Below are positions 917 through 54,018 of a stretch of DNA of 64,000 nucleotides, one piece after another. How positions within the stretch are numbered: the first letter of the stretch is position 1; each line of letters starts with the position of its first letter. This DNA is from Acidobacteriota bacterium. GTDB taxonomy: Bacteria; Acidobacteriota; UBA6911; RPQK01; JAJDTT01. A model generated the notes under the pieces. It did not search any database and had not been told where the DNA came from. It saw only the letters and a program-made list of their open reading frames with translations. The stretch spans positions 391,991 through 455,990 of the forward strand of contig CBDCUP010000009.1 in the NCBI GenBank assembly GCA_965222655.1. Direction: 5' to 3'. The translations under genes were made by a program, and so were the position numbers.

Positions 917-2167
917 TCAACGCTCCAGATCCCGTTCGTCGGCGGCATAGAAGTGACGCCGACCATCGGCAAAGCAAACGGCGAAGATCTGGCGTCGTTC
1001 GTTTTGCGGCAATACCCTACTGTGACGGAGGATTTCAGTTTCGTCCAACGAAACTCCCAGGCCAGGAGCTGTAGGAACATTCACAAAACCGGCCGCTACC
1101 GAAAATGACTCCTTCACGAGAGTAGACTCAAAGATGAGGTGAAGGGTAATGGCAGGCAATGTCGCCGTTGGTATCACCGATGCCAAGTGCAGTGTGAACG
1201 CAGTCTTAGGTCCCATGCCCACAAGTTGCAAAAAACAGGGAAGGTTGAGCTGTTGGAGCAAGCACCCAACCTTGATCATCTGCCCAATTGTCCCACTAAG
1301 AACGAATCCGTCCACTAAGCTCTCTCCTAACCCAGGTCCTTCCGGTATTAAGGCAACTCCATTCTGAACTTGGATGGATTCAACCAAAAGATCACTGACG
1401 CGCAGGTTCTGATTGATGGTAGCAGGTAAGTCAGCGGAAGGTAACACGGCCATTAGATGAAGAGCAACGGCCGCTTGGAAGCCGCAGCCAACAGCTTCGA
1501 TGCTACAGGGCAAGTTGAACAACTCACAGATCGCTCCCACGTTAAGCATTTCACCGATCGTGCTCCTCAGAACAAATCCGTCGGCCGCTCTACTCAGCAC
1601 TGCTTCCATTCCACTCTGGCGTCCACGCGGGGAGCATCCTGTGGGGCTAAGCCAGTGGAGTAAGATAGGAAAATCAACCAGCCTGCGCAGCTGGCTTAAT
1701 CCACGCAAGTCAAACCCGAGGATCGGCTGCTCGATCCGGATGAGTTTCGGAAACCCTTCTAGACGTCGCAGGACCGGCAAAGCTTTTTGGACAGACCTCA
1801 GGTGACGATCCAGATCTATCTCGATCGTGTAATCGGGTGGCGACACCTCCGAAATAGCCGCGACTTGGGCTACTGGATCAAACCAGGGTCGCCCTTTGAT
1901 CTTAATCAAGAGATAACCCATGCGAAGGCTATGTCTCACCTCCTCTGCTAACCCATGCGGATCGAAATCATGTACAAAATATCCAACTTTGCCGTGATTT
2001 CGCACCTTTGGTCCTAGCAACTTGTAGGCAGCGACATCTAAATATTTCCCCATCAGGTCATACATCGCAATCCCCAGAGTCAGATCATGTGGATCGCGGA
2101 TGAAATCGAAGGGATTGCGACCTGAACTTGGAGCGGACATCCTCATATCCATCGCTGTAACCGACAA
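917..2167 (-). CDS. Enolase-superfamily (mandelate racemase/muconate lactonizing-like) barrel protein lacking the N-terminal capping domain and carrying an internal ~95-aa tandem duplication; possibly degenerate
   Basis: KIKGRPWFDP...IEIDLD...IRIEQP barrel motifs; C-terminal PGLG segment present twice; no ATG start (tool used TTG); general-base positions not conserved. Confidence 0.45.
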   Translation of the reverse strand: MSVTAMDMRMSAPSSGRNPFDFIRDPHDLTLGIAMYDLMGKYLDVAAYKLLGPKVRNHGKVGYFVHDFDPHGLAEEVRHSLRMGYLLIKIKGRPWFDPVAQVAAISEVSPPDYTIEIDLDRHLRSVQKALPVLRRLEGFPKLIRIEQPILGFDLRGLSQLRRLVDFPILLHWLSPTGCSPRGRQSGMEAVLSRAADGFVLRSTIGEMLNVGAICELFNLPCSIEAVGCGFQAAVALHLMAVLPSADLPATINQNLRVSDLLVESIQVQNGVALIPEGPGLGESLVDGFVLSGTIGQMIKVGCLLQQLNLPCFLQLVGMGPKTAFTLHLASVIPTATLPAITLHLIFESTLVKESFSVAAGFVNVPTAPGLGVSLDETEILRHSRVLPQNERRQIFAVCFADGRRHFYAADERDLER

Positions 2168-2205
2168 GTCCCGTATCAGTGGTAACTCGGTAGAGAAATA
2201 TGCGA

Positions 2206-2637
2206 TTAGTGTGATCGAAACGCTGTAGATCGTGAGCCCTCCGCTGCGGCAGCCACGTCTTTCAGAAAAGGTACAATGTCACCATCACGTACTTCCATCC
2301 AAAATGGAAAGGCGACCTGGATCGCATTCGCTCCCAATTCTCGAGCGTAGGCGGCTCGACGTATTACCCCGAGAGTATAGGTCGAACTGCAACCGATCAT
2401 CACGGGCTTACCCCATTTTTTGCACTCGTCGACGGTCGCCCGCGCGACGGCCTTGAACTCGTCCAACTCCATCGCGTAAAATTCGCCGGTGGTTCCTCCA
2501 GTGTAGACTCCGGGTACATTCACCTTACAGCAATTCGCTACGTTGATACGGTAAGCTTTCTCATCGAATGTATCGTCATCGCTCCACGCGACCGGCAAGC
2601 CGGCCCACGGCCCGGTCATGGTCTCTCGAGTCAGCAT
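2206..2637 (-). pseudogene. DapA/DHDPS-family (class I aldolase) N-terminal fragment, about 143 of about 300 aa
   Basis: GVYTGGTTGEFYAMELDEFK...AFPFW matches the GTTGE and PYY region of DHDPS/NAL family; catalytic Lys/Tyr region missing; stop at 2206 overlaps the out-of-frame enolase-like ORF. Confidence 0.5.
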
Positions 2638-3005
2638 ACTGATTTTTTCATCTTAACAGTCTCGGAATTTCAATCAAGTGAGCTGTTCTCTGAGACCGCC
2701 CTTTCGTCACAGCCGGGGTGTCCCGAAACAGCCTTTTACGGCCTTGGCCGTCGGCACGAAGTGCCTACTTAAAGCAGGGGGGGAAGCAATTGTCCAAACC
2801 GTGTAGGCCTGGGAAGCCTGCCTTTCCACTTTTCCATCAGGCCCAATTTTTCTTTCTTTTTTGTTTCTTTTTTTGTAACTACTCAGGTAGCACCACCATG
2901 ATGCTGCCTGCGAATCAAGAGTAGCTTACCCCCCCCGAAAGCAACAGAAAAAAACCGAGTTTTTTCGCTGGACTCGGACGGGGTTCGTGGGGTATGGTGT
3001 GAACC

Positions 3006-3884
3006 ATGGCAGGCGTCATGGTCACGCAAGGACGGGAACTGCGCGCCGCAGACATCGACCTGATCCAAGGTCTGATGGCGGAACATCCGGACTGGGGCAG
3101 AACCCGGCTGAGCGAGGAACTCTGCCGGCGGTGGGACTGGCGCAACGCCCAGGGCCGCTTCAAGGATATGGCGGCCCGCACGCTGCTGCTGAAGTTGGAA
3201 CGTGGCGGCCTCATCCGACTGCCGAGGCGCCAGCGACCTTCGTCCAACGGGTTGCGGAACCGCCAGGCGCCCCTGGTGGCTCATGCGACCGAACCGATCC
3301 GTGACGCGTTGGGCGACCTACGACCGCTGAGGCTGAGCGTGGTGGAGTCGGGCTCCGCAGACCTGCAGCTGTTCAACTGCCTGCTCCGCCGCTACCACTA
3401 CCTCGGCCACCGCAACACGGTGGGCGAGAACCTCCGCTATCTGGCACGCGACCGCGCCGGCCGGGCGTTGGGCTGCGCGCTGTTCGGATCGGCCGCGTGG
3501 AAGTGAGCCGCGCGCGATGCCTTCATCGGATGGGAACGCCGGGCGCGGGAACACAACCTCTCGCGCTTGACCAACAACACGCGCTTTCTGGTCTTGCCCT
3601 GGGTCACGGTGCCGCACCTGGCCAGCCACCTGCTCGGGTCTATCGGCCGACAGATTCGCGCCGACTGGCAGAGCAAGTATGGCCATCCGGTTGATGCGCT
3701 GGAAACCTTCGTGGATCGCAGCCGCTTCCGGGGAACCTGCTACCGGGCGGCCAACTGGGTGCCCCTCGGCGCGACGCAGGGGCGGAGCCGCAACGACCGG
3801 GACCATGGCATCCGCGTCTCCATCAAGGAGGTCTACCTCTACCCCTTGATCCAGGACTTCCGCCGGGAGTTGTGCGCATGCTGA
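3006..3884 (+). pseudogene. DUF4338-like accessory ORF, interrupted by an in-frame TGA at 3504-3506
   Basis: Same frame before and after the TGA; motifs RYHYLG, FLVLPWV, CYRAANW shared with the intact paralogue at 8818-9720 (AAWK*AARD here vs AAWRIAARD there). Confidence 0.55.
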
Positions 3885-5341
3885 CGCGCGAAGAGGCACT
3901 GGCCATCTACCAGGCGGGGCCACAGACCGTGGTGCGGGTGTTCTTGGAGATGGACGCGCGTATCCACGCGCTGGAGCAACGCGTCGAGGAGTTGCAGGCG
4001 CAAGTCCAGCCGCTTCAAGATCAACTGGCCCAGAACTCGCGCAACAGCAGCAAGCCGCCCTCCAGCGATGGGCTCCACAAACCTTCGCCCAAGAGCCTTC
4101 GCCAGAAAGGCCGTCGCCAATCGGGCGGACAGCCCGGACATAAGGGGCACACGCTCCAGAGGGTCGAGAAGCCTGATCGTACCGAAGTCCACCGCGTGGA
4201 CGCGTGCGAGTGCTGCGGTCGTCCGCTGGGCGATCAGCCACCCGAGCAGGTCGAGAAACGACAAGTCCACGACCTGCCCCCCAGGCAGAGGGTGGTCACC
4301 GAGCATCAGGCCGAAATCAAACTCTGCTCCTGCGGCCACCGGAACCAAGGGGCCTTCCCCGCCGGGGTCAACGCCCCGGTGCAATACGGTCCCTGCGCCC
4401 GGGCCGCGGCCGTCTATTTGAACAACTCTCAGTTCCTGCCCTATGAGCGCACCTGCCAGCTGCTGGACGATCTGTTCGCCTGCCCCATGAGCGAAGGAAC
4501 CCTGGCCAACCTCATTGCCGAGTGCCAGCAGCGGCTGGAAGATCCCGTGGCTCGAATCAAGCAGCAGATCGCACAGGCCCCGGTCGCGCATTTTGATGAG
4601 AGCGGCTCACGGGTGGAGGGCAAACTCTGGTGGTTGCATGCGGCCTCCACACCCAACGCCCCCTATTACGCGATCCATCGCAAACGCGGCTCGGAAGCTC
4701 TCGATGCCATCCACATCCTGCCCCAGTTCCTCGGACGAGCCCTTCACGACTCTTGGAAACCCTACTTCGGCTACTCCTGTCTGCATGGATTGTGCAACGC
4801 TCACCATCTGCGCGAGTTGATCTTCGTGCACGAGCAGCACCAACAGGACTGGGCCGATCAGATGATCGACTGCCTTCTGGATATCAAACAGGCGGTCGAT
4901 CAGGCCGCACCGACCGCTGACCGTCTCCCTGAAAAACAGATCCAGGCATGGGAAGCCCGTTATCAGCAGATCCTGGAGGAAGGCTTTGCTCACAACCCGT
5001 TGTCACCGCGACCTGCCAACGCCCAGAAGAAACGAGGAAGGCGCAAAAAAACCAAACCTCGCAACCTGCTCGAACGCCTGGACCAACACCGCCAAGAAGC
5101 CTTGGCCTTCATGTACGATTTCAACGTCCCCTTCGATAACAACCTGGTCGAAAGGGACATTCGCATGATGAAGGTGCAACAGAAGATTTCCGGCACATTC
5201 CGAAGCGAAGCCGGCGCGAAGGCTTTCTGTACTATTCGAAGCTACCTCTCCACCGCCCGCAAGAACGCCGTGGGCGCCATTGACGCTCTGGCCCGCGTCT
5301 TCAGCGGCGACCCGTTCGTGCCGACCCTCGACTCCTCGTAG
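3878..5341 (+). CDS. tnpC: IS66 family transposase (TnpC type)
   Basis: Leucine-zipper N-terminus, SSKPPSSDG, CxxC...CxCG zinc finger, HFDESG, NAHHLREL, NNLVERDIR motifs; start overlaps upstream ORF stop. Confidence 0.85.
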   Translation: MLTREEALAIYQAGPQTVVRVFLEMDARIHALEQRVEELQAQVQPLQDQLAQNSRNSSKPPSSDGLHKPSPKSLRQKGRRQSGGQPGHKGHTLQRVEKPDRTEVHRVDACECCGRPLGDQPPEQVEKRQVHDLPPRQRVVTEHQAEIKLCSCGHRNQGAFPAGVNAPVQYGPCARAAAVYLNNSQFLPYERTCQLLDDLFACPMSEGTLANLIAECQQRLEDPVARIKQQIAQAPVAHFDESGSRVEGKLWWLHAASTPNAPYYAIHRKRGSEALDAIHILPQFLGRALHDSWKPYFGYSCLHGLCNAHHLRELIFVHEQHQQDWADQMIDCLLDIKQAVDQAAPTADRLPEKQIQAWEARYQQILEEGFAHNPLSPRPANAQKKRGRRKKTKPRNLLERLDQHRQEALAFMYDFNVPFDNNLVERDIRMMKVQQKISGTFRSEAGAKAFCTIRSYLSTARKNAVGAIDALARVFSGDPFVPTLDSS

Positions 5342-5516
5342 CCGACCCTGCTCGTGCCCCATCAGACCGGCTCCGCCTGGATGCGCGATTATGAGTTCGA
5401 ATAGGAATAGGTAACCGGAAACCGCCTTGCACAAATCCTGTTCATCCTGTAAATCCTGTCAGCCATTGACCTGAGTAGTTACCTTTTTTTAAGCATTTAG
5501 ACTTTCCCACAGGTCC

Positions 5517-10840: not shown

Positions 10841-12550
10841 ATGATCGGATTACCATCTTTTCTTATGATCACCCTTGCCTGCAAAAGGATAGCCAAGAGG
10901 CTGTGGTTTGTTCCCTTTTTAGTTTGCACCATTGTTGCCCAGGAAAATCTCACCGAGCTGTCTGAGTGCACTCTGCGGCAAGCTGAGATTTATTTAAGAG
11001 AGGGACAAGTAAACCAGGCCGAACAAGAACTACAAAAGCTGTTGGCACTCTTACCTCCTGTACACACTTCCTATCGCACAGCCGCATATCGAAATTTAGG
11101 TCTCATCTATCTTCGGCAAGAGAAAGCGGATCAAGCCATTTCTGTTTTTCAAAAGGCATTGAGCCTGGACCCCACACAAGGAGATCTTCATAACTATCTT
11201 GGTGTATCCCTCACGCACAAAGAGCGACATCAGGAGGCAATTGTCCATTTTAAGAGGGCTTACTCACTGGGCCTGAAACACGCACCAATTTTATTAGACT
11301 TAGCCCGGGCAGAATTCACTACTGGCCAAATTTCTCGGGCTTTAAAAAGAATTGATGAGATCAGGACGATCTATCCATCAGAAGCTCATATTCTCCGTGA
11401 GACCGGGCTTCTACTATTTCAGAACCTCTTTTATGAGCGGGCGCAACAGGTATTACATGCTGCTCTAATCTTGGAGCCGAGCTCTTATGAGATCGCCTTT
11501 TATCTGGCGCTCGTCAACTTTGTCATGGAAGAGTTCGTTGCTAGCAGAGAGCTTCTCGAAGAATCGGTGGAAAAAGGAATGGTATCTGTGGATCTCTACA
11601 ATCTTCTTGGCTCTGTGTACGCGAAGCTCGGGCAATTCGAAAAATCTATTGCATCATTCCAAGTTGCCATGCAGCACGATGCGGATCGAGCGGATGCTTA
11701 CCTAAACCTCGCTCTCGTCTACCTGGAGTTGAGGGAAGTCGATCAGGTGGAAGAATTACTGCAGCAGTTGATCCCGCTCGCAAATAACCGGGAACTCAAA
11801 ATTTTTTACAGCCTAACAGGTGCTTCCTGCGAGAATTTACAGCATCAGGAGCAGGAAAAGAGCTCCCTTGTACAAAGTGATCACGCCAAAGCCGACTATT
11901 ATTTGAAAGTGGCCACACTTTTTCAGGATCGATACCATTACACGACGGCACTTGAGCTATTGAAAATAGCCCGAAAGTATGAACCCTCCTCGGCGCGTAT
12001 CTCCTTTGCTCTAGGACTGAGCTGTTTCAACTTGAAACCTTGGTCTACTGGGGCTCGTGACATGTTTCAAAAAGCGGTTGAACTCCAACCCGATTTTGAT
12101 AAAGCACACTATTTTTTGGGAGAAGCTTATGCGTACTCAGGAAAGCACGTAGCGGCTACGGAGGCCTATATGAAGGCGATCGAGCTAAATCCACGATCCG
12201 CTCCTTACTATTATGGTCTTGCTAAAGTGCTGATCAAACAAAACCGGTCCGGCTTTGCTATGAACTTGCTGAGGAAAGCCGTCGAACTGAATCCAAGCCA
12301 CGCTCCATCGTACCACGAATGGGGCAGAATTTACCTCAGACTTGGCGATTACCAAAGGGCCATTGACAAGCTGGAAAAGGCCGTCAAATGTGAGCCTGAG
12401 TTCTTCACATCGTACTATCTATTAGGACGGGCGTACGATAGGATCGGACAAAGAAAAAAGGCAAAAGAGTTACTTAGAGTGTTCGAGACCAAGAAAAAAC
12501 TTGCGGGCGAGCGCCCGCATCGACGGGGGCTTACCACGGTAAGCGAATAG
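10841..12550 (+). CDS. TPR-repeat protein with N-terminal hydrophobic segment
   Basis: Multiple 34-aa TPR units (A..Y..G..Y...G....A...Y..AL.L.P); about 45% GC host-like composition. Confidence 0.8.
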   Translation: MIGLPSFLMITLACKRIAKRLWFVPFLVCTIVAQENLTELSECTLRQAEIYLREGQVNQAEQELQKLLALLPPVHTSYRTAAYRNLGLIYLRQEKADQAISVFQKALSLDPTQGDLHNYLGVSLTHKERHQEAIVHFKRAYSLGLKHAPILLDLARAEFTTGQISRALKRIDEIRTIYPSEAHILRETGLLLFQNLFYERAQQVLHAALILEPSSYEIAFYLALVNFVMEEFVASRELLEESVEKGMVSVDLYNLLGSVYAKLGQFEKSIASFQVAMQHDADRADAYLNLALVYLELREVDQVEELLQQLIPLANNRELKIFYSLTGASCENLQHQEQEKSSLVQSDHAKADYYLKVATLFQDRYHYTTALELLKIARKYEPSSARISFALGLSCFNLKPWSTGARDMFQKAVELQPDFDKAHYFLGEAYAYSGKHVAATEAYMKAIELNPRSAPYYYGLAKVLIKQNRSGFAMNLLRKAVELNPSHAPSYHEWGRIYLRLGDYQRAIDKLEKAVKCEPEFFTSYYLLGRAYDRIGQRKKAKELLRVFETKKKLAGERPHRRGLTTVSE

Positions 12551-12936: not shown

Positions 12937-13497
12937 GCGCTTTGAATTTTCGACCACTTATTCCGTACCAGATCCGAGCGTCAAGATCTTGAGGGATGAA
13001 GCAAGAGAAACTGTATCCCCATGTTTTGATTGTATTTACGGGCTCAGCTAACCTTGGAACAGGCGTTCATGCCCCTCCATAATCCTCACAGTATTGTGCA
13101 GGTTTCGAGCGTGACTCTATTCGAGAAAGTGACGATTTATCAACTACTTACGAGAGCTCCTTGCAGGACTCTTGTGACGCTAGCTCTAAATGATTGAATC
13201 TATGGGACTTTTGACCGGACGGTAGTGAGGCCCTGTATCAATTCTCAGTACCCTACTTGGACTAGCTGCCGCTTTCATATTGGCGCTAGGTCACCTCTTT
13301 TTGGACCTGGGTACGCACGCAGGCGGACACCTCCGCTCTTTTTCCTGGATGTGGGTCCTGCCCACTGGATGCTCGGTTTCCTCCGGATTCGGTGGCCGGT
13401 TTGCCCGGAATACGCAGTCAAGTCGAGATTGAGATTCACTCGATTCACTTTAGTCGTTGTTAATGAAGTCATGCTAAAATGAGAGTTGAAAAAACAG

Positions 13498-13814
13498 GGT
13501 CATCCGGTAAATGGGGAGGTGGAACGTGGTTCGGCGCTTTCCGGATCCCAAATCTGGTTCCCCGTTCGCTTGTCAATATAGTCGGCTGCAGTAGCAGGGG
13601 CCGTGGGAACTGTGGAAAACTCCGAGCGATATCGAACTGGGCCAGCAAGCCCGTGATACGGAGTTTTCCAAGCGCTGTGCGAACGGTGGAAAAACAACTG
13701 CGAGCACTTGCCAGTTCTCCTCCAGAACTACTTGTTTTTCCACGGTTTGCATAGTGCGGCAGTTTCCGCGGCCTGCCTTTGACTGGCGGCACCTCCCCAT
13801 TTACCGGATGAACC
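13498..13814. mobile_element. MITE copy A (317 bp) with 24-bp terminal inverted repeats
   Basis: GGTCATCCGGTAAATGGGGAGGTG...CACCTCCCCATTTACCGGATGAACC; flanked by 8-bp direct repeat AAAAAACA. Confidence 0.8.
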
Positions 13815-13886
13815 AAAAAACATCCCTCGGAGCATCCCAAACATCCCAAACAGCAGAGGACAGCAGAGGGCGGAGGATTGCCTAGC

Positions 13887-15647
13887 AGTGTACCGTTCTT
13901 TCTGTAATTTCCCGTTAGGAGGGAATTTCTCGGGATACCGAGTATTCGGTTGATGAGGAACCTGGCGCGGCTCAGGCAGAGGGAGGCCGTAGGCCGACTG
14001 GAGCCTGAGCCGCGCGGCGCTCCGCGCCGGGCCCCGTGGAAGGGGGCCAAAGGCCGTCAGCCGAAGGGTTGAGCCGTCAGAGGTCTGGGACAAGATTCTC
14101 TAAATCATTCATCCAAAATGAAAGGAGAATCCAATGGCCCCAGACCTGGAAGACAGAGTACCACGAGAGATCCTAGAGGCGTTGATCCAAGAAGGAACGG
14201 AGGCCTTTCGCAAGGTGTTGGAGAAGCTCTTGAACTTGGCCATGGGATTGGAACGGTCGGAGTTTCTGGGAGCTGAGCCCTACGAGAGAACGAACCAGCG
14301 CCGGGGCCACGCTAACGGTTACAAGGACAAGAAGATCGCCACCCGTGTGGGAGAGCTCCGACTGAAGATCCCTCAGGTGCGAGGGTTGTCGTTTTACCCC
14401 CAATCGCTGGAAAAGGGCTGCCGTTCAGAGAAGGCGCTGAAGTTGGCCGTCGCCGAGATGTATGTCATGGGCGTCTCCACGCGCAAGGTCACTGAAATCA
14501 CCGAGCAGCTGTGTGGCACGGAGATCTCCGCCAGCCAGGTCTCACGGGTCGCCTCCCTGCTGGATGAGGAGCTGGAGAAGTTCCGCAGCCGGCCGCTGGG
14601 CGGCGAGTACCCCTTCGTCTACCTGGACGCCCATTACGAGAAGGTCCGTGTCGACGGGCGGGTGCAGGACCTGGCGTTCCTGAAGGCGGTGGGAGTCCAT
14701 GCTTCGGGTCACCGTGAGGTCTTGGGTCTCAGCGCCCGGCTGAGCGAAGCGGAGGTTCACTGGAGAGCGTTTCTGGAGGATCTGGCGGGGCGAGGCCTCA
14801 AAGGAATCGAGATGCTCATCAGCGACGACCACGCCGGACTGAAGGCCGCTCGACGAGCAGTTTTTCCCGCCCTGCCCTGGCAGCGCTGCCAGTTTCATCT
14901 GAGCCAGAACGCTCAGCGTTTCGCCCGTCGGCTCGAAGAGCGGGGCAAAATTGGCCAAGCGATGCGGGACATCTTCAACAGTCCCACCCTCGAGGACGCC
15001 GAAGCCATGCTCAAACGCAAGATCAAGACGTTCACTGAAACCAACCAGGCACTGGCCCAGTGGATGGAAGACAACGTGCGCGAGGGGCTGACGGTCTACG
15101 CCTTCCCGCGCAGCCTCCACAAGAAGATCCGGACGGTCAACGGCGTGGAGAATCTCAACAAACAGATCCGGCGCCGCACGCGTGTGGTGGGAATCTTCCC
15201 CCATAGCGACTCGGCCTTGCGACTGATCTCCGCCGTCATGGCGGAGATTCACGACGAGTGGCTCACGGGCCGCTGCTATCTGAACCTGGAGAGCCGGGAA
15301 CAAAAGGAGGCATCCTAAAGAGCGTTTCCTTGAACCCAAGACCCTAAGATCAGCGAGGGTTCTCGGTAAGGGGCGGCCCGCGATCGTGGCTCTGAGGGCT
15401 TCTGACAGCGCCTCTTTTCTTGGCCAAGGAGGTGGGGGCGCCGAATCGCTCTCACGGACCGGCTGGCTGCGGGTAGTGCATGCTGCTCCGGCCTTCTCAT
15501 TTTGATAGATCTGCTGGTGCCTTAGAAAACGCGGAGATTCACAACGAGCAGCTCACGGACCAGGGCTTTCTGGACCCGAGAGCCAAGAGGGGAGGATTCT
15601 GTCCCACAACCCACCTTGAAATTACAGAAAAATTGTTACGCTGCCGA
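13887..15647 (+). mobile_element. IS256-family element (approximate bounds) with diverged partial duplicate of its 3' end
   Basis: Imperfect terminal IRs containing TTTCTGTAATTTC at about 13887-13915 and about 15615-15647; region 15525-15590 repeats the last about 70 nt of the transposase gene. Confidence 0.55.
14134..15318 (+). CDS. IS256 family (Mutator-type) transposase
   Basis: 394 aa; MYVMGVSTRKV...YLDAHYEKVR...QRCQFH...VENLNKQIRRRTRVVGIFP motifs. Confidence 0.85.
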   Translation: MAPDLEDRVPREILEALIQEGTEAFRKVLEKLLNLAMGLERSEFLGAEPYERTNQRRGHANGYKDKKIATRVGELRLKIPQVRGLSFYPQSLEKGCRSEKALKLAVAEMYVMGVSTRKVTEITEQLCGTEISASQVSRVASLLDEELEKFRSRPLGGEYPFVYLDAHYEKVRVDGRVQDLAFLKAVGVHASGHREVLGLSARLSEAEVHWRAFLEDLAGRGLKGIEMLISDDHAGLKAARRAVFPALPWQRCQFHLSQNAQRFARRLEERGKIGQAMRDIFNSPTLEDAEAMLKRKIKTFTETNQALAQWMEDNVREGLTVYAFPRSLHKKIRTVNGVENLNKQIRRRTRVVGIFPHSDSALRLISAVMAEIHDEWLTGRCYLNLESREQKEAS

Positions 15648-23089: not shown

Positions 23090-24781
23090 CTACAAGGTCC
23101 ATCCCTCGCGGTAGTCGGCGCGGACGTATCTGTTCGCATCAGGTACGTTGGTCACCTTCATGGCCTGCGAGTCCCATTGCAACTTCTTGCCAGTTCGGAT
23201 GGCGATGACGCCCAGGAGTACGGTTTCGGTCAGAGGGTCGGCGTAGTCAAAGCTGCTCAGCGGCGTTGGGCCGCCTTTGCAGGCGTCGATCCATTCGCGG
23301 TGCTGCAGGGATATTGACAACGCGTCAGGACCTCTCGTCTGAATCCTTACGCGTGGCAAGGACGGCTCCGGACGCGGGAAGTCTCTGAAGCGCGATTCCG
23401 GCAGCAGCCGGAGACGGCCGCCGAAGCCGGCCAGCAACTTGCCCTGTTCACCGATGCAAAGCACACCCTGACCCGGCAGGTTCTGTCCGTCGTGCAGCTC
23501 CGCCGGCCGGGGCGGTTTCAAACCGCCGTCGTACCAGGTCAGCTTCACCGGCGGCATGCCGTGACCGGCGGGAAACTCGTAATGAACCATCGATGCCACC
23601 GGCGCGGTTTCCGACGTGACCCGGCTCGAAGTGGCTTCAACACTCGTCGGATGCCTCAACTCTAGCGCCCAGTAGACGGGGTCGATGATGTGACAGCCCA
23701 TATCGCCCAGTGACCCGGAACCGAAAGCCCACCAGCCACGCCATTTGAAGGGCAGGTAGGCGGGATGATACGGTCGGTACGGTGCGGGGCCAAGCCACAG
23801 GTCCCAGTCGAGCCCGTCCGGCACCGACGGCGTATCCGCGGGGCGATCTCGACCGGGAGCCCATGCCGTGCCGGCCGCTGCCCAGCGCCGCTGCCTGACC
23901 GGAGACCATGGGCCGTGCCAACCCGTGTCGGCACACCAAGCATGTACCTCGTGTACCGGGCCGATCGCCCCGGACCGCAAGACTTCGACCTGAAGCCGGA
24001 GATGGTCGTGAGCATGGAACTGGTTGCCCATCTGAGTGGCGAGCTTGGCCGCGCCAGCCACCTCAGCCAGCTTGCGGGCCTCGTCGATCGTATGGGTCAG
24101 CGGTTTTTCGCAGTAAACGTGCTTGCCCATCTTGAGTGCCTGCATGGCGACGACGGCGTGCGAGTGGTCCGGCGTCGCCACCACCACCGCCTCGATGCCC
24201 TTCTCTTCTTCGAGCATCTCGCGAAAGTCGCGGTAGGCGGCACAGCCCTTGTACGTGCCGCTCCGTTTTTGCTGGGCGTAATGGTTTTCGACCATCCGCC
24301 GCGCCGGCTCGCGCCCTGCGACACCACCCTTGTAGTCAAAGTAGTCCCTGCCTTCCCGGTTCACATCGCAGACGGCGACCACCTGAACGTCCGCTTGATT
24401 TGCCAGCAACGACGTGACATGCCTTAGGCCGTGACAGCCGGTACCGATCACCGCCAGATTCACTTTTTCGCTTGGCGGGGCGTGAACGCCCGCTCCGAGC
24501 ACATGTCGAGGAACAATGGTAAAGGCCGCCGCGGCCGCAAGCGCACCGCTGCAAAGATCACGCCGAGACAGCTCCGCCGCCTTGGATGGATGTTTCTCGG
24601 TCCGTGTATTGCCCGATGATCCGGAGTCGTTGCCCGCGCTTAACCTTGGTCCTTTCGGGGATTTCCTGCTTCGCCTTTCGGTCGTCTTTCTCCGATCTTC
24701 CACCTTAGCTCTCCCGTATTTTTCGTTGCGACTGCTTGCTTCATCAGTGCATTTGTTCCTAACCCCTCTTTTTGGGGTCAT
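23090..24781 (-). CDS. Gfo/Idh/MocA-family NAD(P)-dependent oxidoreductase with Tat-type signal; putative start codon lies inside the MITE terminal repeat
   Basis: SRRDLCSGALAAAAAF Tat motif, NLAVIGTGCHG Rossmann, EKPLTHTIDEARKL; only in-frame ATG upstream of the Rossmann fold is in CCGGATGACC of MITE copy B. Confidence 0.7.
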   Translation of the reverse strand: MTPKRGVRNKCTDEASSRNEKYGRAKVEDRRKTTERRSRKSPKGPRLSAGNDSGSSGNTRTEKHPSKAAELSRRDLCSGALAAAAAFTIVPRHVLGAGVHAPPSEKVNLAVIGTGCHGLRHVTSLLANQADVQVVAVCDVNREGRDYFDYKGGVAGREPARRMVENHYAQQKRSGTYKGCAAYRDFREMLEEEKGIEAVVVATPDHSHAVVAMQALKMGKHVYCEKPLTHTIDEARKLAEVAGAAKLATQMGNQFHAHDHLRLQVEVLRSGAIGPVHEVHAWCADTGWHGPWSPVRQRRWAAAGTAWAPGRDRPADTPSVPDGLDWDLWLGPAPYRPYHPAYLPFKWRGWWAFGSGSLGDMGCHIIDPVYWALELRHPTSVEATSSRVTSETAPVASMVHYEFPAGHGMPPVKLTWYDGGLKPPRPAELHDGQNLPGQGVLCIGEQGKLLAGFGGRLRLLPESRFRDFPRPEPSLPRVRIQTRGPDALSISLQHREWIDACKGGPTPLSSFDYADPLTETVLLGVIAIRTGKKLQWDSQAMKVTNVPDANRYVRADYREGWTL

Positions 24782-25091
24782 CCGGTAAATGGGGAGGTGG
24801 GGACGTGGTTGGCACCTTCCGGATCCCAAATCTGCTCCCCGTTCGCTTGTCCATATAGTCGGCTGCAGTAGCAGAGGCCGTGGGAACTGTGGAAAACTCC
24901 GAGCGACATCGAACCGGGCCAGCAAGCCCGTGATACGGAGTTTTCCAAGCGCTGTGCGAACGGTGGAAAAACAACTGCGAGCACTTGCCAGTTCTCCTCC
25001 AGAACTACTTGTTTTTCCACGGTTTGCATAGTGCGGCAGTTTCCATGGCCTGCCTTTGACTGGCGGCACCTCCCCATTTACCGGATGAACC
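24776..25091. mobile_element. MITE copy B (316 bp)
   Basis: Same 24-bp TIRs; flanked by 9-bp direct repeat CTCTTTTTG. Confidence 0.8.
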
Positions 25092-25100
25092 TCTTTTTGT

Positions 25101-27577: not shown

Positions 27578-28329
27578 CCCCTCTCCACTCCGGGGTAGAA
27601 CTCAAATTACAGAAAGAAAGTTACACGGCCTGACGTTAAACCTCGCCGCGCAGCGGTTTTGAATAGGGGTCGTCGGAAGGGTCGCTTGGTTTGATCCTCT
27701 CGACGCCGTGCGCCTTGAAGTCTTTCCATAGCTCTTTGAAAGCTGGGGTCCCTTCGACCAACTCCCCGCCCTCGATCCTACCAACAACCTCTCCAGCCCT
27801 TCATCCGGGTTAACCACACACGAAAGGGCCATATTGGAAAAGACGTGGGCCTCAGGCGCGCTCGAGTTACTGAAACACGCTTATTCCCACATCGAGCTCA
27901 ACTCCGCCTTCGACAAGCGAATGGCCTTCATCAGCAGCAATACCTGCGTGGAGAGGGGCTAATATAGCTGGACGATGCCCACATGGAGTTCCCCGGAATC
28001 GGGAGAAGAAATATCTCCTAGGAGTGTGCGCAATAGAACGGTTTTGGGAGAGTCCATTGGACCAAGATGGCAACAAAACATCAAATTACGCGTGTTGATA
28101 GGTCCAAAAGACTCAAAATACATTGACACCTAAATTGAGCGATTCTACTCATTTTAGCGAAAATGAAGGTCGCACAGATGCGAGTTCCGACGGCAGAGGG
28201 TTCCGGGTGAGTTCAGAAGGGTGGAGGGTGGCGATTTTCCCTCGCGAAAGGGAGCAGCGACCCTGAGCCGAGGCGATAGCGGGCACACGGGGGCCCTGAG
28301 GCTGGAAGGAGGCTTTGGTTTTTTGAGAT

Positions 28330-29787
28330 TTAGACCCAGGCGAAAGGCGGCGGGTGGGCGCTCTTGCGCCAGAGCCGGTCGATTTGAAGCTGCTTCCAGG
28401 TGGCGGCCGTTACTTTCAGCAGGATCTGGCCGGCATGGCGGACGATTTTCCCCGCCACGTCGATGATCCGCCGACGTAAGGTCGTGGGGTAGCAGTTGAG
28501 CGGCACCACCGGCTGGCACACATCTTCCTTGAAACACTCGTAAAGGAAAAAGGCCACCAGCAACGTGTAGTAATAGGCCGCGTTGGCAGCAAAGCGTTTA
28601 AACGGAAGAGTCTGTGAGGTAAAGTCCTTCAGGGCTCGATGCACTAACTCATCGGCTCCCCGTCCCTGATAGCCTTGCAGGATCGCCTCGGCTTGAAGCC
28701 AACGCTCGAGCCCCGCTTGCTGGAGCTGCTCGTCCACGGCGGAGCCGCAACCGAGATTGGTGTACAGGATCTGATCGGGACGGGCAAAGGCCAAAAGGCG
28801 CTGCTGATCCTCATAAGCCGGTCGGCAGAACAGGGCCCGGCGGAACTTCTCCCAGCTACCCCGCCGGTTTCCCAGTTCCACATAGTGCCACTCCTGATCG
28901 CCGTTGCGAGAGACTCCCCAGGCCGTTTCCTCCAGCTGCAAGATGTACTGTTGCACATCGCCATAGAGCTTGCCGGCGACGATGTAGCCGACCTGGAGTT
29001 CTTCCAAGACCTTCAGCAGCTTCTGATCGAAAAAGCCGCTGTCCAGGCGCACGATGATGGGTACCTCGGAGCGGTACTTTCGGCGAATCTTCCGGATCAG
29101 ATGACTCAGGGTCTTCGGGGCCGTGTCGGCGTGGTTGGAGTGCTTGTCTCCTCCCCGAAAGACGGCATCGATGAGCAAGCGGCCCCAGGTGACCTGAAGC
29201 GGCTGAAACCCTTTGACTCGTTTGTAGGTCGGCGCCACGCCGTGGCGCTGGGGGGCCTCGTCGTTGTCCATCACCATGGTATCCATCCCCAGCAGAATCA
29301 GGGGCGGCTGTTGCAATCGCAGCCGCCACAGGAACAGCTGCTGCAGGAGTCGGCGAAAGAGCCAGATGCGCCACATGGAAAAGCGGCCGAAAAAGCGCTT
29401 GACCGCGTGAGAGGACAGCAAGGCCTCGGGCTTCGTCTCGATCGCTGCTCCATAGCCCGGATCCTCCTTCAAGGCTTCGAAGGACACCAAATGGCGACTC
29501 GATCCGTCTAGGAAGAAGCACCACAGCTGTTTGAAGATCTCCGTCACCGGCTGTCCTTTGCGGCTTTTGCGCAAGGAGCCAAACAGCCGATCCAGATCAG
29601 GGTCCAGACCCAAGCTCCGCACATAGCGGACAAACAGGCTCAGCCCGGCGCGTCCGGTCAAGGTCTCCGAGGTGGGTTGCACGTCGTCTATCCTTCGGGA
29701 AACAGACGCCTCAGAATGACGGGGAAGGGTGCTATAGTGGCTCACAGTTGTTTTACCTTCTGGGTTAGGAGCTTTTCGGTAGCCCAT
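28330..29787 (-). CDS. DDE transposase, IS1380/IS4-like
   Basis: 485 aa; N-terminal ETLTGRAGLSLF, central RLDSGFF, C-terminal ANAAYYYTLLVAFFLYE block typical of IS1380/IS4 group; family from memory. Confidence 0.55.
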   Translation of the reverse strand: MGYRKAPNPEGKTTVSHYSTLPRHSEASVSRRIDDVQPTSETLTGRAGLSLFVRYVRSLGLDPDLDRLFGSLRKSRKGQPVTEIFKQLWCFFLDGSSRHLVSFEALKEDPGYGAAIETKPEALLSSHAVKRFFGRFSMWRIWLFRRLLQQLFLWRLRLQQPPLILLGMDTMVMDNDEAPQRHGVAPTYKRVKGFQPLQVTWGRLLIDAVFRGGDKHSNHADTAPKTLSHLIRKIRRKYRSEVPIIVRLDSGFFDQKLLKVLEELQVGYIVAGKLYGDVQQYILQLEETAWGVSRNGDQEWHYVELGNRRGSWEKFRRALFCRPAYEDQQRLLAFARPDQILYTNLGCGSAVDEQLQQAGLERWLQAEAILQGYQGRGADELVHRALKDFTSQTLPFKRFAANAAYYYTLLVAFFLYECFKEDVCQPVVPLNCYPTTLRRRIIDVAGKIVRHAGQILLKVTAATWKQLQIDRLWRKSAHPPPFAWV

Positions 29788-48922: not shown

Positions 48923-51229
48923 ATGGAATTGCGGAAGAACTGCCGGACACTGATCACGGCCTTGAACCGGTTTTGGCACCGGGAGGCCGGGCCGATGAAC
49001 TGGAAAAACCCCGTCCGCGTGGTGGCCTATATCGGCTGGGAAATTTTCAACGTCATGGCCTTCTTGGTGGGTGAATGGGTCCGGTACGGCGTCCGGGCCA
49101 GTCAGATTGTCCTGGCCATTCCCCCTACCGTGATCCTCTTTTCCGGGGGGGTTTGGTTCGCCGTTTGGAGCTTTGTCCGGCGTCCTTTTCCGGCGCTTGA
49201 GACGGTCCCTTTGCTCGATCTTTTGGAGTATCACAACCCGAATGTTTACAGTGCCGTGGTGATCTGGTACTACCTTTCTCCGCTGGTGGCGGTGATGCTG
49301 GCCGGATCTATTTCCCTGTCTATTTGGAAGGTTTGGATTGAGGCGCGAAAGCGCGATTTACTTCCCTTTGGGGCGCTCCCCGCTTGGCCTCTTTCCCCGA
49401 AGCAGCCCGGCCCCGAAATCGTCATCGGGGAAGTGCATCATCCGGTCGAAGCCAGGGAGATTTTCAACCCCGGATGGCTCACCATCCCGGAGCGCGGACT
49501 GTATACCGGCATTGCCATTTTTGGAGCGGTGGGGAGCGGCAAAACTTCGGCCTGTATGCACCCCTTCGCCAAGCAGCTACTCGGCTGGCAAGCGGACGAT
49601 CCGGAGCGGAGGCCAGCGGCGCTCATGCTCGAAGTGAAGGGAGATTTTTGCCATGACATTCGCTCGATCCTGGATAACGCGGGCCGGGGAGACGACTACC
49701 TGGAGATCGGAATGGGCGGCGTCTGGAAATGGAACCCCCTCTCCGCGTGGTGGCTCGATTCATACTCGCTGGCCTACACCGTTGCCAGCCTTCTCAATCA
49801 GCTTTTCGGCAAGGGCAAGGAGCCTTTTTGGCAGCAAGCCTATACCAATCTGGTGCGCTGGATTATCGAGCTTCACCGGGTGCTGCCGGAGCAGTGGGTG
49901 ACATTGCAGCAGGTCTATCAATGCGCCATTGACCCGGATCTTTTCGCGGCCAAGATCAAACAGGCCGAGGCATGGAGCGCGGAGCTAAACACCGGGGAGG
50001 TTTTCATTCCGTCCGAAATCTGGAAACCAAAAATGTACGATCTAGCCGATTGGGACATGAAGGCCACACCGGACGGGAAGGAAATGCAGACCGTCTACAC
50101 CGTGGACCTGGCTCATAAGCTAGAGGAATTGGAGATCAAGCCTCGTATCGTTTGGGAGCCCGGAGCCGGGGACGATGTGAGAGAGCGGGTGGCCACTGTG
50201 AAGCGGTGGTTTGACAACGACTGGCAAAAGCTGGACAACAAAATCAAATCCTCGATTGTCGAAGGCGTTTCCGTATTCCTGTCAATGTTCGATATGCCGG
50301 ACGTGGCGGCGGTGTTCTGTCCCCCGCCCCCGGAAGTGTCCGACGATCCCCGGCGCATCGGCCCGAAGGCCAGGGCCGCGATGCTGGCCGAGGCAAAGGC
50401 CCAGGCCAAGGGCCGGGGGGAGGCAAGCGGCGAGAAGAAGGGCAAGGAGGACCGGCAATGGCCCGCCCATACCATTGCCGAAAGGCCGCGCTATTTACCC
50501 CCGCTCTATGAATTGATCGAGGGCGGCAAGGTGCTGGCCTTGAACATGCCAGCCGGGAGCAACCCGGCGCTGGCCCGCGCCATCGGCGTGATGCTCAAAA
50601 ACGCATGGCTCCAAGCCTTGCTCATGCGACCGGCTCAGATGAAGGAATCCCCCACGGCCTACTTTCGGCCAGCGGTCTTTATCTGTGACGAGTACCAATC
50701 CTTCGCATCGGTGGGCGAGGACGATCCGACCGGCGATGAGAAATCCTTTGCCTTAACGCGGCAATGCCGCTGCATCCCGATTGTTGCGACCCAATCCATA
50801 TCCTCATTGCGGGCCGTGCTTGGCAGTTCGGAGGCGTGGCGGGCGCTCTTGCAGACGCTTCGCACCCGGATCTTCCTATCCTTGAGCGACGACGCCAGCG
50901 CCAAGATTGCATCGGAATTGTGCGGGCAGGTTGCCAAGATCAAAGGATCGTACACGATCAGCGAGACCTCGAAGCGGGCGGGCGTGTCCCCGCTCTCAGG
51001 CCGCGCCGGTGGATCGGGCGGCGGGAGCATCGGCGCAACCAAGTCTTTCCAGGAGCGCCGGGAGGCCGTCTTTCACCCGCGAGACTTCGCCTTGCTTGGA
51101 AACTGTCAGGCTATTTGCTTGCCCTATGACGGGGCGCAATCGCTGGAACCCAGGAGGGTTTATCTCAAACCTCATTACCTTCCCCTGGAACATTCTTATT
51201 GGAGAGCGAAGGAGGCCGGAGAGATATGA
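48923..51229 (+). CDS. virD4: Type IV coupling protein VirD4/TraG
   Basis: N-terminal TM helices; Walker A GAVGSGKT; TraG/TrwB family length; true start may be ATG at 48995. Confidence 0.85.
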   Translation: MELRKNCRTLITALNRFWHREAGPMNWKNPVRVVAYIGWEIFNVMAFLVGEWVRYGVRASQIVLAIPPTVILFSGGVWFAVWSFVRRPFPALETVPLLDLLEYHNPNVYSAVVIWYYLSPLVAVMLAGSISLSIWKVWIEARKRDLLPFGALPAWPLSPKQPGPEIVIGEVHHPVEAREIFNPGWLTIPERGLYTGIAIFGAVGSGKTSACMHPFAKQLLGWQADDPERRPAALMLEVKGDFCHDIRSILDNAGRGDDYLEIGMGGVWKWNPLSAWWLDSYSLAYTVASLLNQLFGKGKEPFWQQAYTNLVRWIIELHRVLPEQWVTLQQVYQCAIDPDLFAAKIKQAEAWSAELNTGEVFIPSEIWKPKMYDLADWDMKATPDGKEMQTVYTVDLAHKLEELEIKPRIVWEPGAGDDVRERVATVKRWFDNDWQKLDNKIKSSIVEGVSVFLSMFDMPDVAAVFCPPPPEVSDDPRRIGPKARAAMLAEAKAQAKGRGEASGEKKGKEDRQWPAHTIAERPRYLPPLYELIEGGKVLALNMPAGSNPALARAIGVMLKNAWLQALLMRPAQMKESPTAYFRPAVFICDEYQSFASVGEDDPTGDEKSFALTRQCRCIPIVATQSISSLRAVLGSSEAWRALLQTLRTRIFLSLSDDASAKIASELCGQVAKIKGSYTISETSKRAGVSPLSGRAGGSGGGSIGATKSFQERREAVFHPRDFALLGNCQAICLPYDGAQSLEPRRVYLKPHYLPLEHSYWRAKEAGEI

Positions 51230-53902: not shown

Positions 53903-53970
<68 letters not shown>

Positions 53971-54018
53971 GATTTTTCAACGGGTTAGAGCAATCACCCT
54001 AACCGCCCCACGAGCCCA

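What the first reader, a model, noticed from the sequence alone, without database searches (positions are those of the whole stretch)
13498..13814. New MITE family: 316-bp element with 24-bp TIRs and 8-9 bp TSDs, three copies in 18 kb
Copies at 13498-13814, 24776-25091 and 31176-31492 are about 90-95% identical and end in GGTCATCCGGTAAATGGGGAGGTG / CACCTCCCCATTTACCGGATGAACC. Each is flanked by its own direct repeat: AAAAAACA, CTCTTTTTG and TCAAATAG. This is a textbook non-autonomous transposon. None of the transposases in the window has matching IRs, so its mobilising partner is elsewhere. The interior has no ORF-disrupting stops in several frames, which fooled the ORF track into calling 60-100 aa ORFs repeatedly.
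Basis: seen in the sequence. Interest (0 to 1): 0.6.

Follow-up and report, generated by a model that had tools for sequence, protein, structure and literature searches.

The report
ISL3-derived MITE in sponge-associated Acidobacteriota
The three repeats are copies of a small non-coding jumping element that borrows the transposase of a 1.7-kb ISL3-family insertion sequence found in closely related strains; this is an ordinary kind of bacterial mobile DNA, here with its partner and its pre-insertion sites identified.

Summary
Three 317-318 bp copies lie at 13497-13814 (+), 24775-25091 (+) and 31176-31492 (-). Each has 25-bp terminal inverted repeats (24/25 complementary) and an 8-bp target-site duplication. 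Copies 2 and 3 are identical; copy 1 is 94% identical to them.

Near-identical metagenome contigs (flanks over 99.5% identical) carry clean empty sites for copies 2 and 3, with the 8-bp target present once. This shows insertion directly.

It is a 1716-bp ISL3-family insertion sequence with these features:
- The left IR is identical to the MITE's (25/25) and the right IR matches 23/25.
- It makes 8-bp duplications: TGTAATTA, ATTAAATC, CGAATTAA.
- Its 402-aa transposase scores 293.9 bits on NCBIfam NF033550 (cut-off 180).

One copy sits in a conspecific contig at the site equal to window 34130-34137, which is empty in the window.

The MITE consists of the left IR, a nested-hairpin part of the IS's 484-nt 5' leader (80% identical, collinear), about 12 nt, and the right IR. 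The 80-99 aa ORFs inside it are not conserved.

ISL3-derived MITEs already have a precedent in Microcystis. Verdict: a new member of a known kind, of low to moderate interest. The conserved leader module is the only open point.

The parts
13497..13814 (+). MITE copy 1 (318 bp), 94% identical to copies 2 and 3. Intergenic, 70 nt upstream of the left IR of an IS256-like element.
13489..13496 (.). Left copy of the 8-bp TSD AAAAAACA of copy 1. The right copy is at 13815-13822.
   Evidence: sequence read directly
24775..25091 (+). MITE copy 2 (317 bp). It sits in the spacer between a glyoxalase-family gene (25733-25101, -) and a GFO/IDH/MocA oxidoreductase gene (about 24703-23090, -). The spacer is 72 nt in the strains that lack the element.
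24767..24774 (.). Left copy of the 8-bp TSD TCTTTTTG of copy 2. The right copy is at 25092-25099. The target is present once in five empty-site contigs (L101-L105).
31176..31492 (-). MITE copy 3 (317 bp, inverted), identical to copy 2. It lies immediately after the TAG stop codon of an ankyrin-repeat gene (30051-31175).
31168..31175 (.). Left copy of the 8-bp TSD TCAAATAG of copy 3; it contains the ankyrin gene's stop codon. The right copy is at 31493-31500. The target is present once in L110 and L112.
24865..25054 (+). Nested-hairpin module inside the MITE, also at 13588-13777 (+) and 31213-31402 (-). It is 80% identical and collinear with positions 95-282 of the 5' leader of the partner IS. 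The stems are built from GTGGRAA / TTYCCAY.
34130..34137 (.). Unoccupied target (TTAATTCG on the + strand). In the conspecific contig L110 this site holds a copy of the partner ISL3 element, flanked by the TSD CGAATTAA.
49355..49362 (.). Unoccupied target. In the related contig L108 (flanks about 90% identical) this site holds a copy of the partner ISL3 element, flanked by the TSD ATTAAATC.

Best explanation
The three repeats are copies of a non-autonomous transposon (MITE) that depends on an ISL3-family insertion sequence.

**The partner.** It is a 1716-bp IS found in conspecific and closely related Acidobacteriota contigs. It has 25-bp IRs, a 484-nt 5' leader and one gene for a 402-aa DDE transposase with an ISL3 HTH domain and an ISL3 DDE domain.

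**The MITE's make-up.** It keeps the IS's left IR unchanged. Next come about 65 nt with no similarity to the IS, then a 190-nt nested-hairpin segment of the IS leader, then about 12 nt and the right IR. It looks like an old internal-deletion derivative, or a mosaic, that lost the rest of the leader and the whole transposase gene.

**Inferred mechanism (not shown here).** Transposase supplied in trans binds the two IRs, excises or copies the element, and inserts it through a staggered 8-bp cut at A/T-rich targets. This produces the 8-bp duplications.

**What is shown and what is inferred.** Shown are the anatomy, the insertion polymorphism, the shared ends with an ISL3 element and the ISL3 identity of the transposase. 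Inferred are trans-mobilisation by that transposase and any cis role of the hairpin module.
For: - **TIRs and TSDs at exact boundaries.**
- **Empty sites.** They carry a single copy of the 8-bp target and no footprint. For copy 2 they are in L101-L105. For copy 3 they are in L110 and L112. Flanks are 99.5-99.9% identical to the window.
- **Recent activity.** Copies 2 and 3, and a copy in another MAG (L009), are 100% identical.
- **Matching ends on the IS.** L106:2017-3732 has IRL GGGTCATCCGGTAAATGGGGAGGTG, which matches the MITE left TIR 25/25. Its IRR is GACCTCCCCATTTACCGGAAGAACC (23/25). IS TSDs are TGTAATTA (L106), ATTAAATC (L108) and CGAATTAA (L110). The window holds the matching empty sites for the L108 and L110 insertions.
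- **ISL3 identity of the transposase.** P0082 scores 293.9 bits on NF033550 'ISL3 family transposase' (cut-off 180). It also hits PF01610 (224.6 bits) and PF13542.
- **Interior homology.** MITE positions 92-279 are 81% identical and collinear with IS positions 95-282.
- **Wider clade.** Environmental ISL3 elements carry related ends (GGTTCATCCGGCAAATGCCGGGGTG). Three of them show perfect 8-bp TSDs, and their flanks are A/T-rich.
- **Intact partner is abundant.** 402-aa transposase variants occur on 67 and 74 contigs, including contigs of 4.7-4.8 Mb.
- **Precedent.** A 187-nt Microcystis MITE shares ITRs and 8-nt direct repeats with ISL3 elements (PMC11448079).
Against: - No ISL3 transposase gene is present in the 64-kb window itself. 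Whether this particular genome still has an intact partner is not shown.
- The IS right IR differs from the MITE right TIR at 2 of 25 positions.
- MITE positions 27-94 are only 34% identical to the IS. The MITE is therefore not a recent simple deletion of the IS copies found. It may descend from a diverged relative or be a mosaic.
- Trans-mobilisation was not demonstrated experimentally.
- Most metagenomic relatives lacked a clean TSD, possibly because of chimeric assembly.
- The empty site of copy 1 could not be retrieved.
Confidence: 0.93

Rival explanations
1. The MITE is mobilised by one of the transposases encoded in the window. The main candidate is the IS256-like element that starts 70 nt from copy 1, because IS256 elements also make 8-9 bp duplications.
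For: A Transposase_mut gene lies at 14134-15318, next to copy 1. That IS256-family elements give 8-9 bp TSDs is general knowledge, not tested here.
Against: The IS256-like element's own IRs (13885-13911 / 15618-15644, GCAGTGTACCGTTCTTTCTGTAATTTC) are unrelated to the MITE TIR. The MITE TIR occurs nowhere else in the window. An ISL3 element carries the identical IR.
Confidence: 0.02
2. The repeats are not transposons. They are a dispersed structured RNA or regulatory repeat (REP/BIME-like or a small RNA gene family) that spread by recombination or is conserved for a host function.
For: The element folds strongly: -166.3 kcal/mol (z = -10.2) on the + strand and -147.8 kcal/mol (z = -7.5) on the - strand. 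The stronger strand carries invariant G·U pairs.
Against: Perfect 8-bp duplications and clean presence/absence alleles in near-identical strains show insertion. The ends equal those of an ISL3 IS. There was no Rfam hit at gathering thresholds and no promoter-like or terminator-like site in or around copy 2. Orientation relative to neighbouring genes is not consistent among the three copies.
Confidence: 0.02
3. The element is an ISL3-dependent MITE, but the hairpin module is itself the functional core. It would be a cis-acting structured RNA or DNA element of this IS lineage, either a set of transposase-binding hairpins or a leader that controls transposase expression. On this view the MITE persists because it retains the module. 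This refines the best explanation rather than replacing it.
For: Conservation between MITE and IS is uneven: TIR 100%, module 80%, and the segment between them 34%. The same nested structure is kept in both, with 94% of cells paired against 39-46% for slid controls. All three stems reuse GTGGRAA / TTYCCAY. The G·U pairs favour the transposase-sense strand.
Against: Only 2 of 71 pairs show compensatory change, and the sequences represent only two lineages. The slid control is biased because the structure was derived from these same sequences. The covariance model finds the module only in this IS and its MITEs. The look-alike 3' region of other ISL3 relatives scores E = 0.52. A mosaic origin would explain the uneven identity without any selection.
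Confidence: 0.25

Closest known systems
ISL3-associated MITE of Microcystis aeruginosa PCC 7806 (187 nt; PMC11448079)
   Same: Both are short non-coding elements whose terminal inverted repeats match those of ISL3-family IS copies in the same lineage. Both have 8-nt direct repeats, a stem-loop fold, and spurious ORFs that overlap the terminal repeats.
   Different: The sequences are unrelated: the Microcystis ITR starts GGCTCTTCG, and this one starts GG(G/T)TCATCCGG. This element is longer (317 bp). It carries a 190-nt nested-hairpin segment homologous to its partner's 5' leader. The host phylum is Acidobacteriota, not Cyanobacteria.
ISL3 family insertion sequences (NCBIfam NF033550; Pfam PF01610 and PF13542). 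The ISfinder family definition is recalled from memory: 1.3-2.3 kb, IR 15-39 bp, 8-bp direct repeats.
   Same: The partner element is 1716 bp, has 25-bp IRs that begin with GG and makes 8-bp TSDs. It has a single transposase ORF that passes the ISL3 equivalog model.
   Different: It has an unusually long (484 nt) structured 5' leader. The MITE itself has no transposase. Whether this IS already has an ISfinder name could not be checked.
Clade of environmental ISL3 elements with GGTTCATCCGGCAAATGCCGGGGTG ends (loci L019-L098 from metagenomes)
   Same: The transposase C-termini are 63-86% identical over the roughly 50 residues matched. The full-length L019 transposase is 65% identical to P0082. 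The outer 11 nt of the IRs are the same. Three members show perfect 8-bp TSDs, and flanks are A/T-rich.
   Different: The inner halves of the IRs differ. None carries the hairpin module at a significant score. Some have 200-490 nt of non-coding DNA at the 3' side instead of the 5' side.
Other bacterial MITE types: IS630-related elements (e.g. RUP) and Tn3-derived TIMEs (PMC4133298). Their properties are recalled from general knowledge.
   Same: All are small, TIR-bounded, non-coding, multicopy elements mobilised in trans.
   Different: IS630-type elements duplicate TA, and TIMEs duplicate 5 bp and have about 38-bp Tn3-type IRs. Here every TSD is 8 bp and the IRs are ISL3-type.

Membership tests
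Bacterial MITE (non-autonomous TIR element) | Short (under about 600 bp) with no conserved coding capacity | tested here: met
   The elements are 317-318 bp. The internal 80-99 aa ORFs are interrupted at different positions in copy 1, copy 2/3 and the L107 copy.
Bacterial MITE (non-autonomous TIR element) | Terminal inverted repeats | tested here: met
   25 nt, 24/25 complementary, in all three copies.
Bacterial MITE (non-autonomous TIR element) | Target-site duplication of fixed length, different at each copy | tested here: met
   The 8-bp TSDs are AAAAAACA, TCTTTTTG and TCAAATAG. TAAAAAGG flanks the L009 copy.
Bacterial MITE (non-autonomous TIR element) | Evidence of mobility (presence/absence at orthologous sites) | tested here: met
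   Empty sites for copy 2 are in L101-L105. Empty sites for copy 3 are in L110 and L112. The site of copy 1 could not be retrieved.
Bacterial MITE (non-autonomous TIR element) | Ends shared with an autonomous element that encodes a transposase | tested here: met
   The IS at L106:2017-3732 has an IRL that matches 25/25 and an IRR that matches 23/25. Its leader is 81% identical to the MITE interior.
ISL3 family (partner IS, and hence the MITE's affiliation) | Transposase passes the curated ISL3 models | tested here: met
   NF033550 scores 293.9 bits (cut-off 180), PF01610 224.6 bits and PF13542 47.8 bits.
ISL3 family (partner IS, and hence the MITE's affiliation) | 8-bp direct target repeats | tested here: met
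   IS copies are flanked by TGTAATTA, ATTAAATC and CGAATTAA. All MITE copies have 8-bp TSDs. The IS copy in L107 has no clean TSD.
ISL3 family (partner IS, and hence the MITE's affiliation) | Size 1.3-2.3 kb and IRs of 15-39 bp (family definition recalled from ISfinder) | tested here: met
   1716 bp with 25-bp IRs.
ISL3 family (partner IS, and hence the MITE's affiliation) | The transposase actually mobilises the MITE in trans | not testable with these tools
   This needs a transposition assay. Identical MITE copies and intact 402-aa transposase genes on many contigs are only circumstantial.
IS256-derived MITE | Ends match those of an IS256-family element | tested here: not met
   The IRs of the window's IS256-like element are unrelated to the MITE TIR.
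Tn3-derived (TIME) or IS630-derived MITE | 5-bp TSD (TIME) or TA TSD (IS630) | tested here: not met
   All TSDs are 8 bp.
Any Rfam RNA family | Match at the family's gathering score | tested here: not met
   The only hit in the window is a tRNA at 53893-53967.

The most novel reading that the evidence does not exclude
The 190-nt nested-hairpin module may be a previously unrecognised cis-acting structured element of this ISL3 lineage. It has three stems, all built from GTGGRAA / TTYCCAY, and invariant G·U pairs on the transposase-sense strand. It is shared by the IS's 5' leader and the MITE. It could be a set of hairpin transposase-binding sites or a leader RNA that controls transposase expression, and its retention could be what makes this MITE competent to move.
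Probability: 0.2. Interest if true: 0.5.

Novelty: new member of a known kind. Interest (0 to 1): 0.3.

Why it matters
The main value is for annotation and for reading population data.
- **Assembly breaks.** This MITE and its ISL3 partner break short-read assemblies of the lineage. At least 15 stretches of one Acidobacteriota MAG carry the TIR, nearly all of them at a contig end.
- **False genes.** The element produces spurious 80-99 aa gene calls.
- **Strain differences.** It accounts for several presence/absence differences between otherwise 99.5-99.9% identical strains.
- **Useful marker.** Knowing the element, its partner and its A/T-rich 8-bp target gives a strain-typing marker. It is also a documented case of an active MITE/IS pair in an uncultivated Acidobacteriota lineage. 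One MAG carrying it is named for Langseth, which I recall as an Arctic sponge ground. The ankyrin- and TPR-repeat genes in the window fit a sponge symbiont, but that link is my inference, not a tool result.
- **Open point.** Only the conserved hairpin module in the IS leader goes beyond routine. If it is required in cis, it would add to the poorly studied biochemistry of ISL3 transposition.

Tried and rejected
- **Partner in the window.** The window holds IS256-like, IS630-like, IS4-like (DDE_Tnp_1_4) and IS66-like transposases and a tyrosine integrase, but no ISL3. No further TIR-like sequence occurs at up to 7 mismatches.
- **Fishing with the C-terminal fragment.** A 32-aa transposase C-terminus from L014 was too short for the protein search. 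I padded it with 9 residues from the ISL3 consensus, which were my own guess and used only for fishing. That returned only short fragments. The full-length transposase came from a search with a relative's transposase, followed by filtering on the C-terminus.
- **Exact look-ups that failed.** P0083, the ankyrin gene, the TPR gene, the 276-aa ORF at 32722-33552 and the IS256 transposase were not on record. As a result the empty site of copy 1 was not obtained.
- **Other collections.** Plasmids in distant BLASTN mode gave no match. Viral contigs gave two chance 17-mers.
- **Homology to relatives' 3' regions.** I tested whether the MITE interior is homologous to the 3' non-coding regions of other ISL3 relatives. 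BLASTN matched only the TIRs, and the covariance model gave E = 0.52 for L018. I rejected this as unsupported.
- **L011 variant.** My early idea that L011's variant left end was a deletion derivative keeping the transposase C-terminus was wrong. It is an IS66-like element nested in the ISL3 leader.
- **Signals around copy 2.** A promoter and terminator scan found nothing.
- **Covariation.** The test of the module was inconclusive.

Full report
**1. The observation**

The 22-nt core of the terminal repeat, TCATCCGGTAAATGGGGAGGTG, occurs exactly six times in the window as three inverted pairs. Dinucleotide-preserving shuffles expect 0.01.

Exact anatomy:
- Copy 1: 13497-13814 (+), 318 bp.
- Copy 2: 24775-25091 (+), 317 bp.
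- Copy 3: 31176-31492 (-), 317 bp.
- Terminal inverted repeats: 25 nt, 24/25 complementary, GG[G/T]TCATCCGGTAAATGGGGAGGTG.
- Target-site duplications: 8 bp in every case, namely AAAAAACA, TCTTTTTG and TCAAATAG.

Copies 2 and 3 are identical, and copy 1 is 94.3% identical to them.

**2. Insertion is shown directly**

The glyoxalase-family protein next to copy 2 is encoded, residue for residue, on five other public metagenome contigs. In all five, the spacer to the next gene reads ...GGATTGAA CAAAAAGA GGGGTTAGG.... The window has CAAAAAGA, then the 317-bp element, then CAAAAAGA at the same place.

Fetching 10 kb around the same gene gave contigs L110 and L112, whose flanks are 99.6-99.9% identical to the window. 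Both read ...AAGGTG TCAAATAG TTGCTCGG... where the window carries copy 3.

So two of the three copies have clean empty alleles with a single copy of the 8-bp target and no footprint. The empty site of copy 1 could not be retrieved, because the exact-protein look-ups failed.

All three copies avoid coding sequence:
- Copy 2 expands a 72-nt spacer between two same-strand genes.
- Copy 3 sits immediately after the TAG stop codon of an ankyrin-repeat gene. That stop codon is part of the duplicated target, so the protein is unchanged.
- Copy 1 is intergenic.

**3. Host and copy number**

A scan of one genome per species found the TIR in two Acidobacteriota MAGs. This is the usual signature of a multicopy repeat that breaks a short-read assembly. 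The other MAG has a complete copy that is 100% identical to copies 2 and 3 (L009), flanked by the TSD TAAAAAGG.

Those contig ends fall into MITE left ends, MITE right ends, and a second type of left end that shares only the first 26 nt with the MITE.

**4. Finding the partner**

The route had four steps.
1. One contig (L014) showed a TIR-like end (GGTTCTTCCGGTAAATGGGGAGGTC) directly abutting the last 32 codons of a gene, with a MITE nested in that gene.
2. That peptide hits the C-terminus of Pfam DDE_Tnp_ISL3 at 25.1 bits (cut-off 23). Its best annotated tblastn match, and the other annotated hits, are 'ISL3 family transposase'.
3. An independent 504-bp contig (L017) has the same C-terminus followed by ACCTCCCCATTTACCGGATGAACC.
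4. A protein search with a related full-length transposase, filtered for that C-terminus, gave P0082 and P0083. Both are 402 aa, they are 97% identical to each other, and their C-terminus is identical to the L014 peptide.

P0082 is encoded on three long-read contigs. In each, the gene lies inside a 1716-bp element with these parts:
- IRL GGGTCATCCGGTAAATGGGGAGGTG, matching the MITE left TIR 25/25.
- A 484-nt leader.
- The transposase gene.
- IRR GACCTCCCCATTTACCGGAAGAACC (23/25), which overlaps the stop codon.

The three IS copies differ by 2-7 nt. Two are flanked by perfect 8-bp duplications: TGTAATTA and ATTAAATC. For the second, the window holds the corresponding empty site at 49355-49362.

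A fourth copy is 98.3% identical, and its ORF is split in two. It lies in L110, the same contig that provides the empty site of copy 3. It is flanked by CGAATTAA at the position equal to window 34130-34137, which is unoccupied in the window. The partner therefore exists in the same species, 2.6 kb from where the window carries MITE copy 3.

P0082 passes NCBIfam NF033550 'ISL3 family transposase' at 293.9 bits (cut-off 180), and also Pfam PF01610 and PF13542. Variants of the same 402-aa protein are seen on 67 and 74 contigs, including contigs of 4.7-4.8 Mb. Intact copies are therefore common in this lineage.

The 'second type of left end' in the Langseth MAG is simply this IS's left end.

**5. 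How the MITE relates to the IS**

| MITE segment (alignment A4 columns) | Identity to the IS |
|---|---|
| 1-26 (IRL) | 26/26 |
| 27-94 | 34% (no similarity) |
| 95-285 (module) | 80%, collinear |
| after the module | about 12 nt, then the right IR |

In element coordinates, MITE positions 92-279 align with IS positions 95-282 at 81% identity.

The MITE thus has the architecture of an internal-deletion derivative that lost the distal leader and the whole transposase gene. It is old or mosaic relative to the IS copies in hand. Within the MITE family identities are 92-100%, and within the IS they are above 99.5%.

A shorter MITE variant also exists. It has an internal deletion between short GAAC repeats that removes the first inner hairpin (L003).

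**6. The wider clade**

A metagenome scan with the C-terminal alignment returned 80 ISL3 loci. Many are complete elements of 1.3-2.0 kb whose ends share the outer GG(T/G)TCATCCGG with the MITE. The commonest end is GGTTCATCCGGCAAATGCCGGGGTG. The closest are L019/L020 (GGGTCATCCGGAGAATGGGGAGGTT) and L071.

Three of them show perfect 8-bp TSDs, and the flanks are A/T-rich like the MITE's targets. The remainder lack clean TSDs, which for metagenome assemblies may reflect chimeric joins.

**7. The hairpin module**

The whole MITE folds strongly: -166.3 kcal/mol (z = -10.2) on its + strand and -147.8 kcal/mol (z = -7.5) on the other strand. Beyond the TIR pairing, positions 92-279 form an outer stem that encloses two long hairpins. 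All three stems are made of GTGGRAA on the 5' side and TTYCCAY on the 3' side.

The same structure is kept in the IS leader. There, 94% of cells are paired against 39-46% when partners are slid. Several G·U pairs are invariant, and they would be C·A mismatches on the opposite strand. This favours the transposase-sense strand.

The support is still weak:
- Only 2 of 71 pairs show compensatory change.
- The five sequences represent two lineages.
- The structure was derived from these same sequences.

I therefore rate the covariation test as inconclusive.

A covariance model of the module finds only the MITE and IS copies in 385 kb of held sequence. A look-alike 3' region of another ISL3 lineage (L018, L045, L051) scores only E = 0.52.

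The uneven MITE-IS identity (100% / 34% / 80%) fits selection on the module for a cis function. It fits a mosaic origin equally well.

**8. Things that are not there**

- No Rfam family matches at gathering thresholds.
- No promoter-like or terminator-like site occurs in or around copy 2.
- There is no plasmid match.
- There is no relevant viral-contig match.
- The internal ORFs of 80-99 aa start at the ATG inside one TIR. Some run to the TGA inside the other. They are broken at different positions in copy 1, copy 2/3 and the L107 copy, so they are not genes.

**9. Comparison with what is known**

ISL3-associated MITEs have a published precedent. It is a 187-nt Microcystis element whose ITRs (GGCTCTTCG...) and 8-nt direct repeats match ISL3 elements, with a stem-loop fold and spurious ORFs over the ITRs (PMC11448079). 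The present element is unrelated in sequence but is the same kind of thing.

All defining MITE features I could test are met, and so are the ISL3 family features of its partner. Only trans-mobilisation itself is untestable here. The rival affiliations fail on TIR identity or TSD length:
- IS256: the IRs of the adjacent element are unrelated.
- Tn3-derived TIMEs and IS630-type elements: the TSD lengths are wrong.

I found no paper describing this element. ISfinder could not be queried.

**10. Verdict**

The element is a new member of a known kind, namely an ISL3-derived MITE. Its autonomous partner, its target preference and its pre-insertion alleles are now identified. Interest is low to moderate (0.3). 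The conserved leader module is the one feature that might repay further work.

Noticed in passing
window 13885-15644: An IS256-like element. The Transposase_mut gene is at 14134-15318, and candidate 27-nt IRs lie at 13885-13911 and 15618-15644 (81% complementary). It starts 70 nt after MITE copy 1, and its IRs are unrelated to the MITE's.
   Followed up: partly
window 28129-29865: A 1737-bp segment carrying a DDE_Tnp_1_4 (IS4-like) transposase gene (28330-29787, -). It is absent from conspecific contigs L102 and L110 but present in L112, so it is another polymorphic IS insertion.
   Followed up: partly
window about 31696-32768: An IS630-like element with DDE_3 (31705-32355, -) and HTH (32241-32723, -) ORFs, 200 nt from MITE copy 3. 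It is absent from L110 and present in L112.
   Followed up: partly
window about 2875-5400; L011:1-127; L107:5225-6209: An IS66-family element. It has a DruA-like ORF, frameshifted in the window (3006-3506 and 3567-3884), and a DDE_Tnp_IS66 transposase gene (3872-5341). In the Langseth MAG (L011) its left end is nested 83 nt inside the leader of a copy of the ISL3 partner. A Druantia-annotated domain travelling with an IS66 transposase is odd.
   Followed up: partly
L107:1694-3732: A MITE copy (1694-2011) and a full IS copy (2017-3732) lie head to tail, only 5 nt (TTTTT) apart. Neither has a matching 8-bp TSD. This could reflect insertion next to a related end, or a later rearrangement.
   Followed up: no
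L014:6941-7129: A MITE is inserted inside the transposase gene of an ISL3 partner copy, 99 nt from its right IR. The MITE has therefore inactivated one copy of its own mobiliser.
   Followed up: partly
L003:900-1039: A shorter MITE variant in which positions about 122-175 (the first inner hairpin) are deleted between short GAAC repeats.
   Followed up: no
L018:215-418; L045:2441-2668; L051:4153-4380: Another ISL3 lineage has about 200 nt of non-coding DNA between the transposase stop codon and the right IR. This DNA is built from nested hairpins with GTGGRAA / TTTCCAT arms, resembling the MITE module but on the 3' side. The covariance model gives only E = 0.52, so homology is unproven.
   Followed up: partly
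L019:1838-2325; L071:1833-2230; L027, L070, L084: Several ISL3 relatives carry 270-490 nt of GC-rich non-coding sequence between the transposase stop codon and the right IR. Its function is unknown.
   Followed up: no
window 53893-55092: A tRNA-Arg (TCT) gene at 53893-53970 is immediately followed by a tyrosine integrase gene (54019-55092, -). This is the usual signature of an integrated element at a tRNA gene.
   Followed up: no
window 39065-39151: ARAGORN calls an 87-nt tRNA-Thr (GGT) here, but Rfam's tRNA model has no match at its gathering score. The call is doubtful.
   Followed up: no
window 30051-31175 and 32722-33552: The 30051-31175 ORF is a confirmed ankyrin-repeat gene with about 99-nt DNA repeats. 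The 32722-33552 ORF shares the same DNA repeat family, and its L110/L112 counterparts are annotated Ank. A 569-aa TPR protein is encoded at 10841-12550. Such eukaryote-like repeat proteins are typical of sponge symbionts (from general knowledge). The ankyrin array differs in repeat number between conspecific contigs.
   Followed up: no
window 27582-27748: A 167-bp segment is missing from conspecific contig L112, a small indel polymorphism of unknown nature.
   Followed up: no
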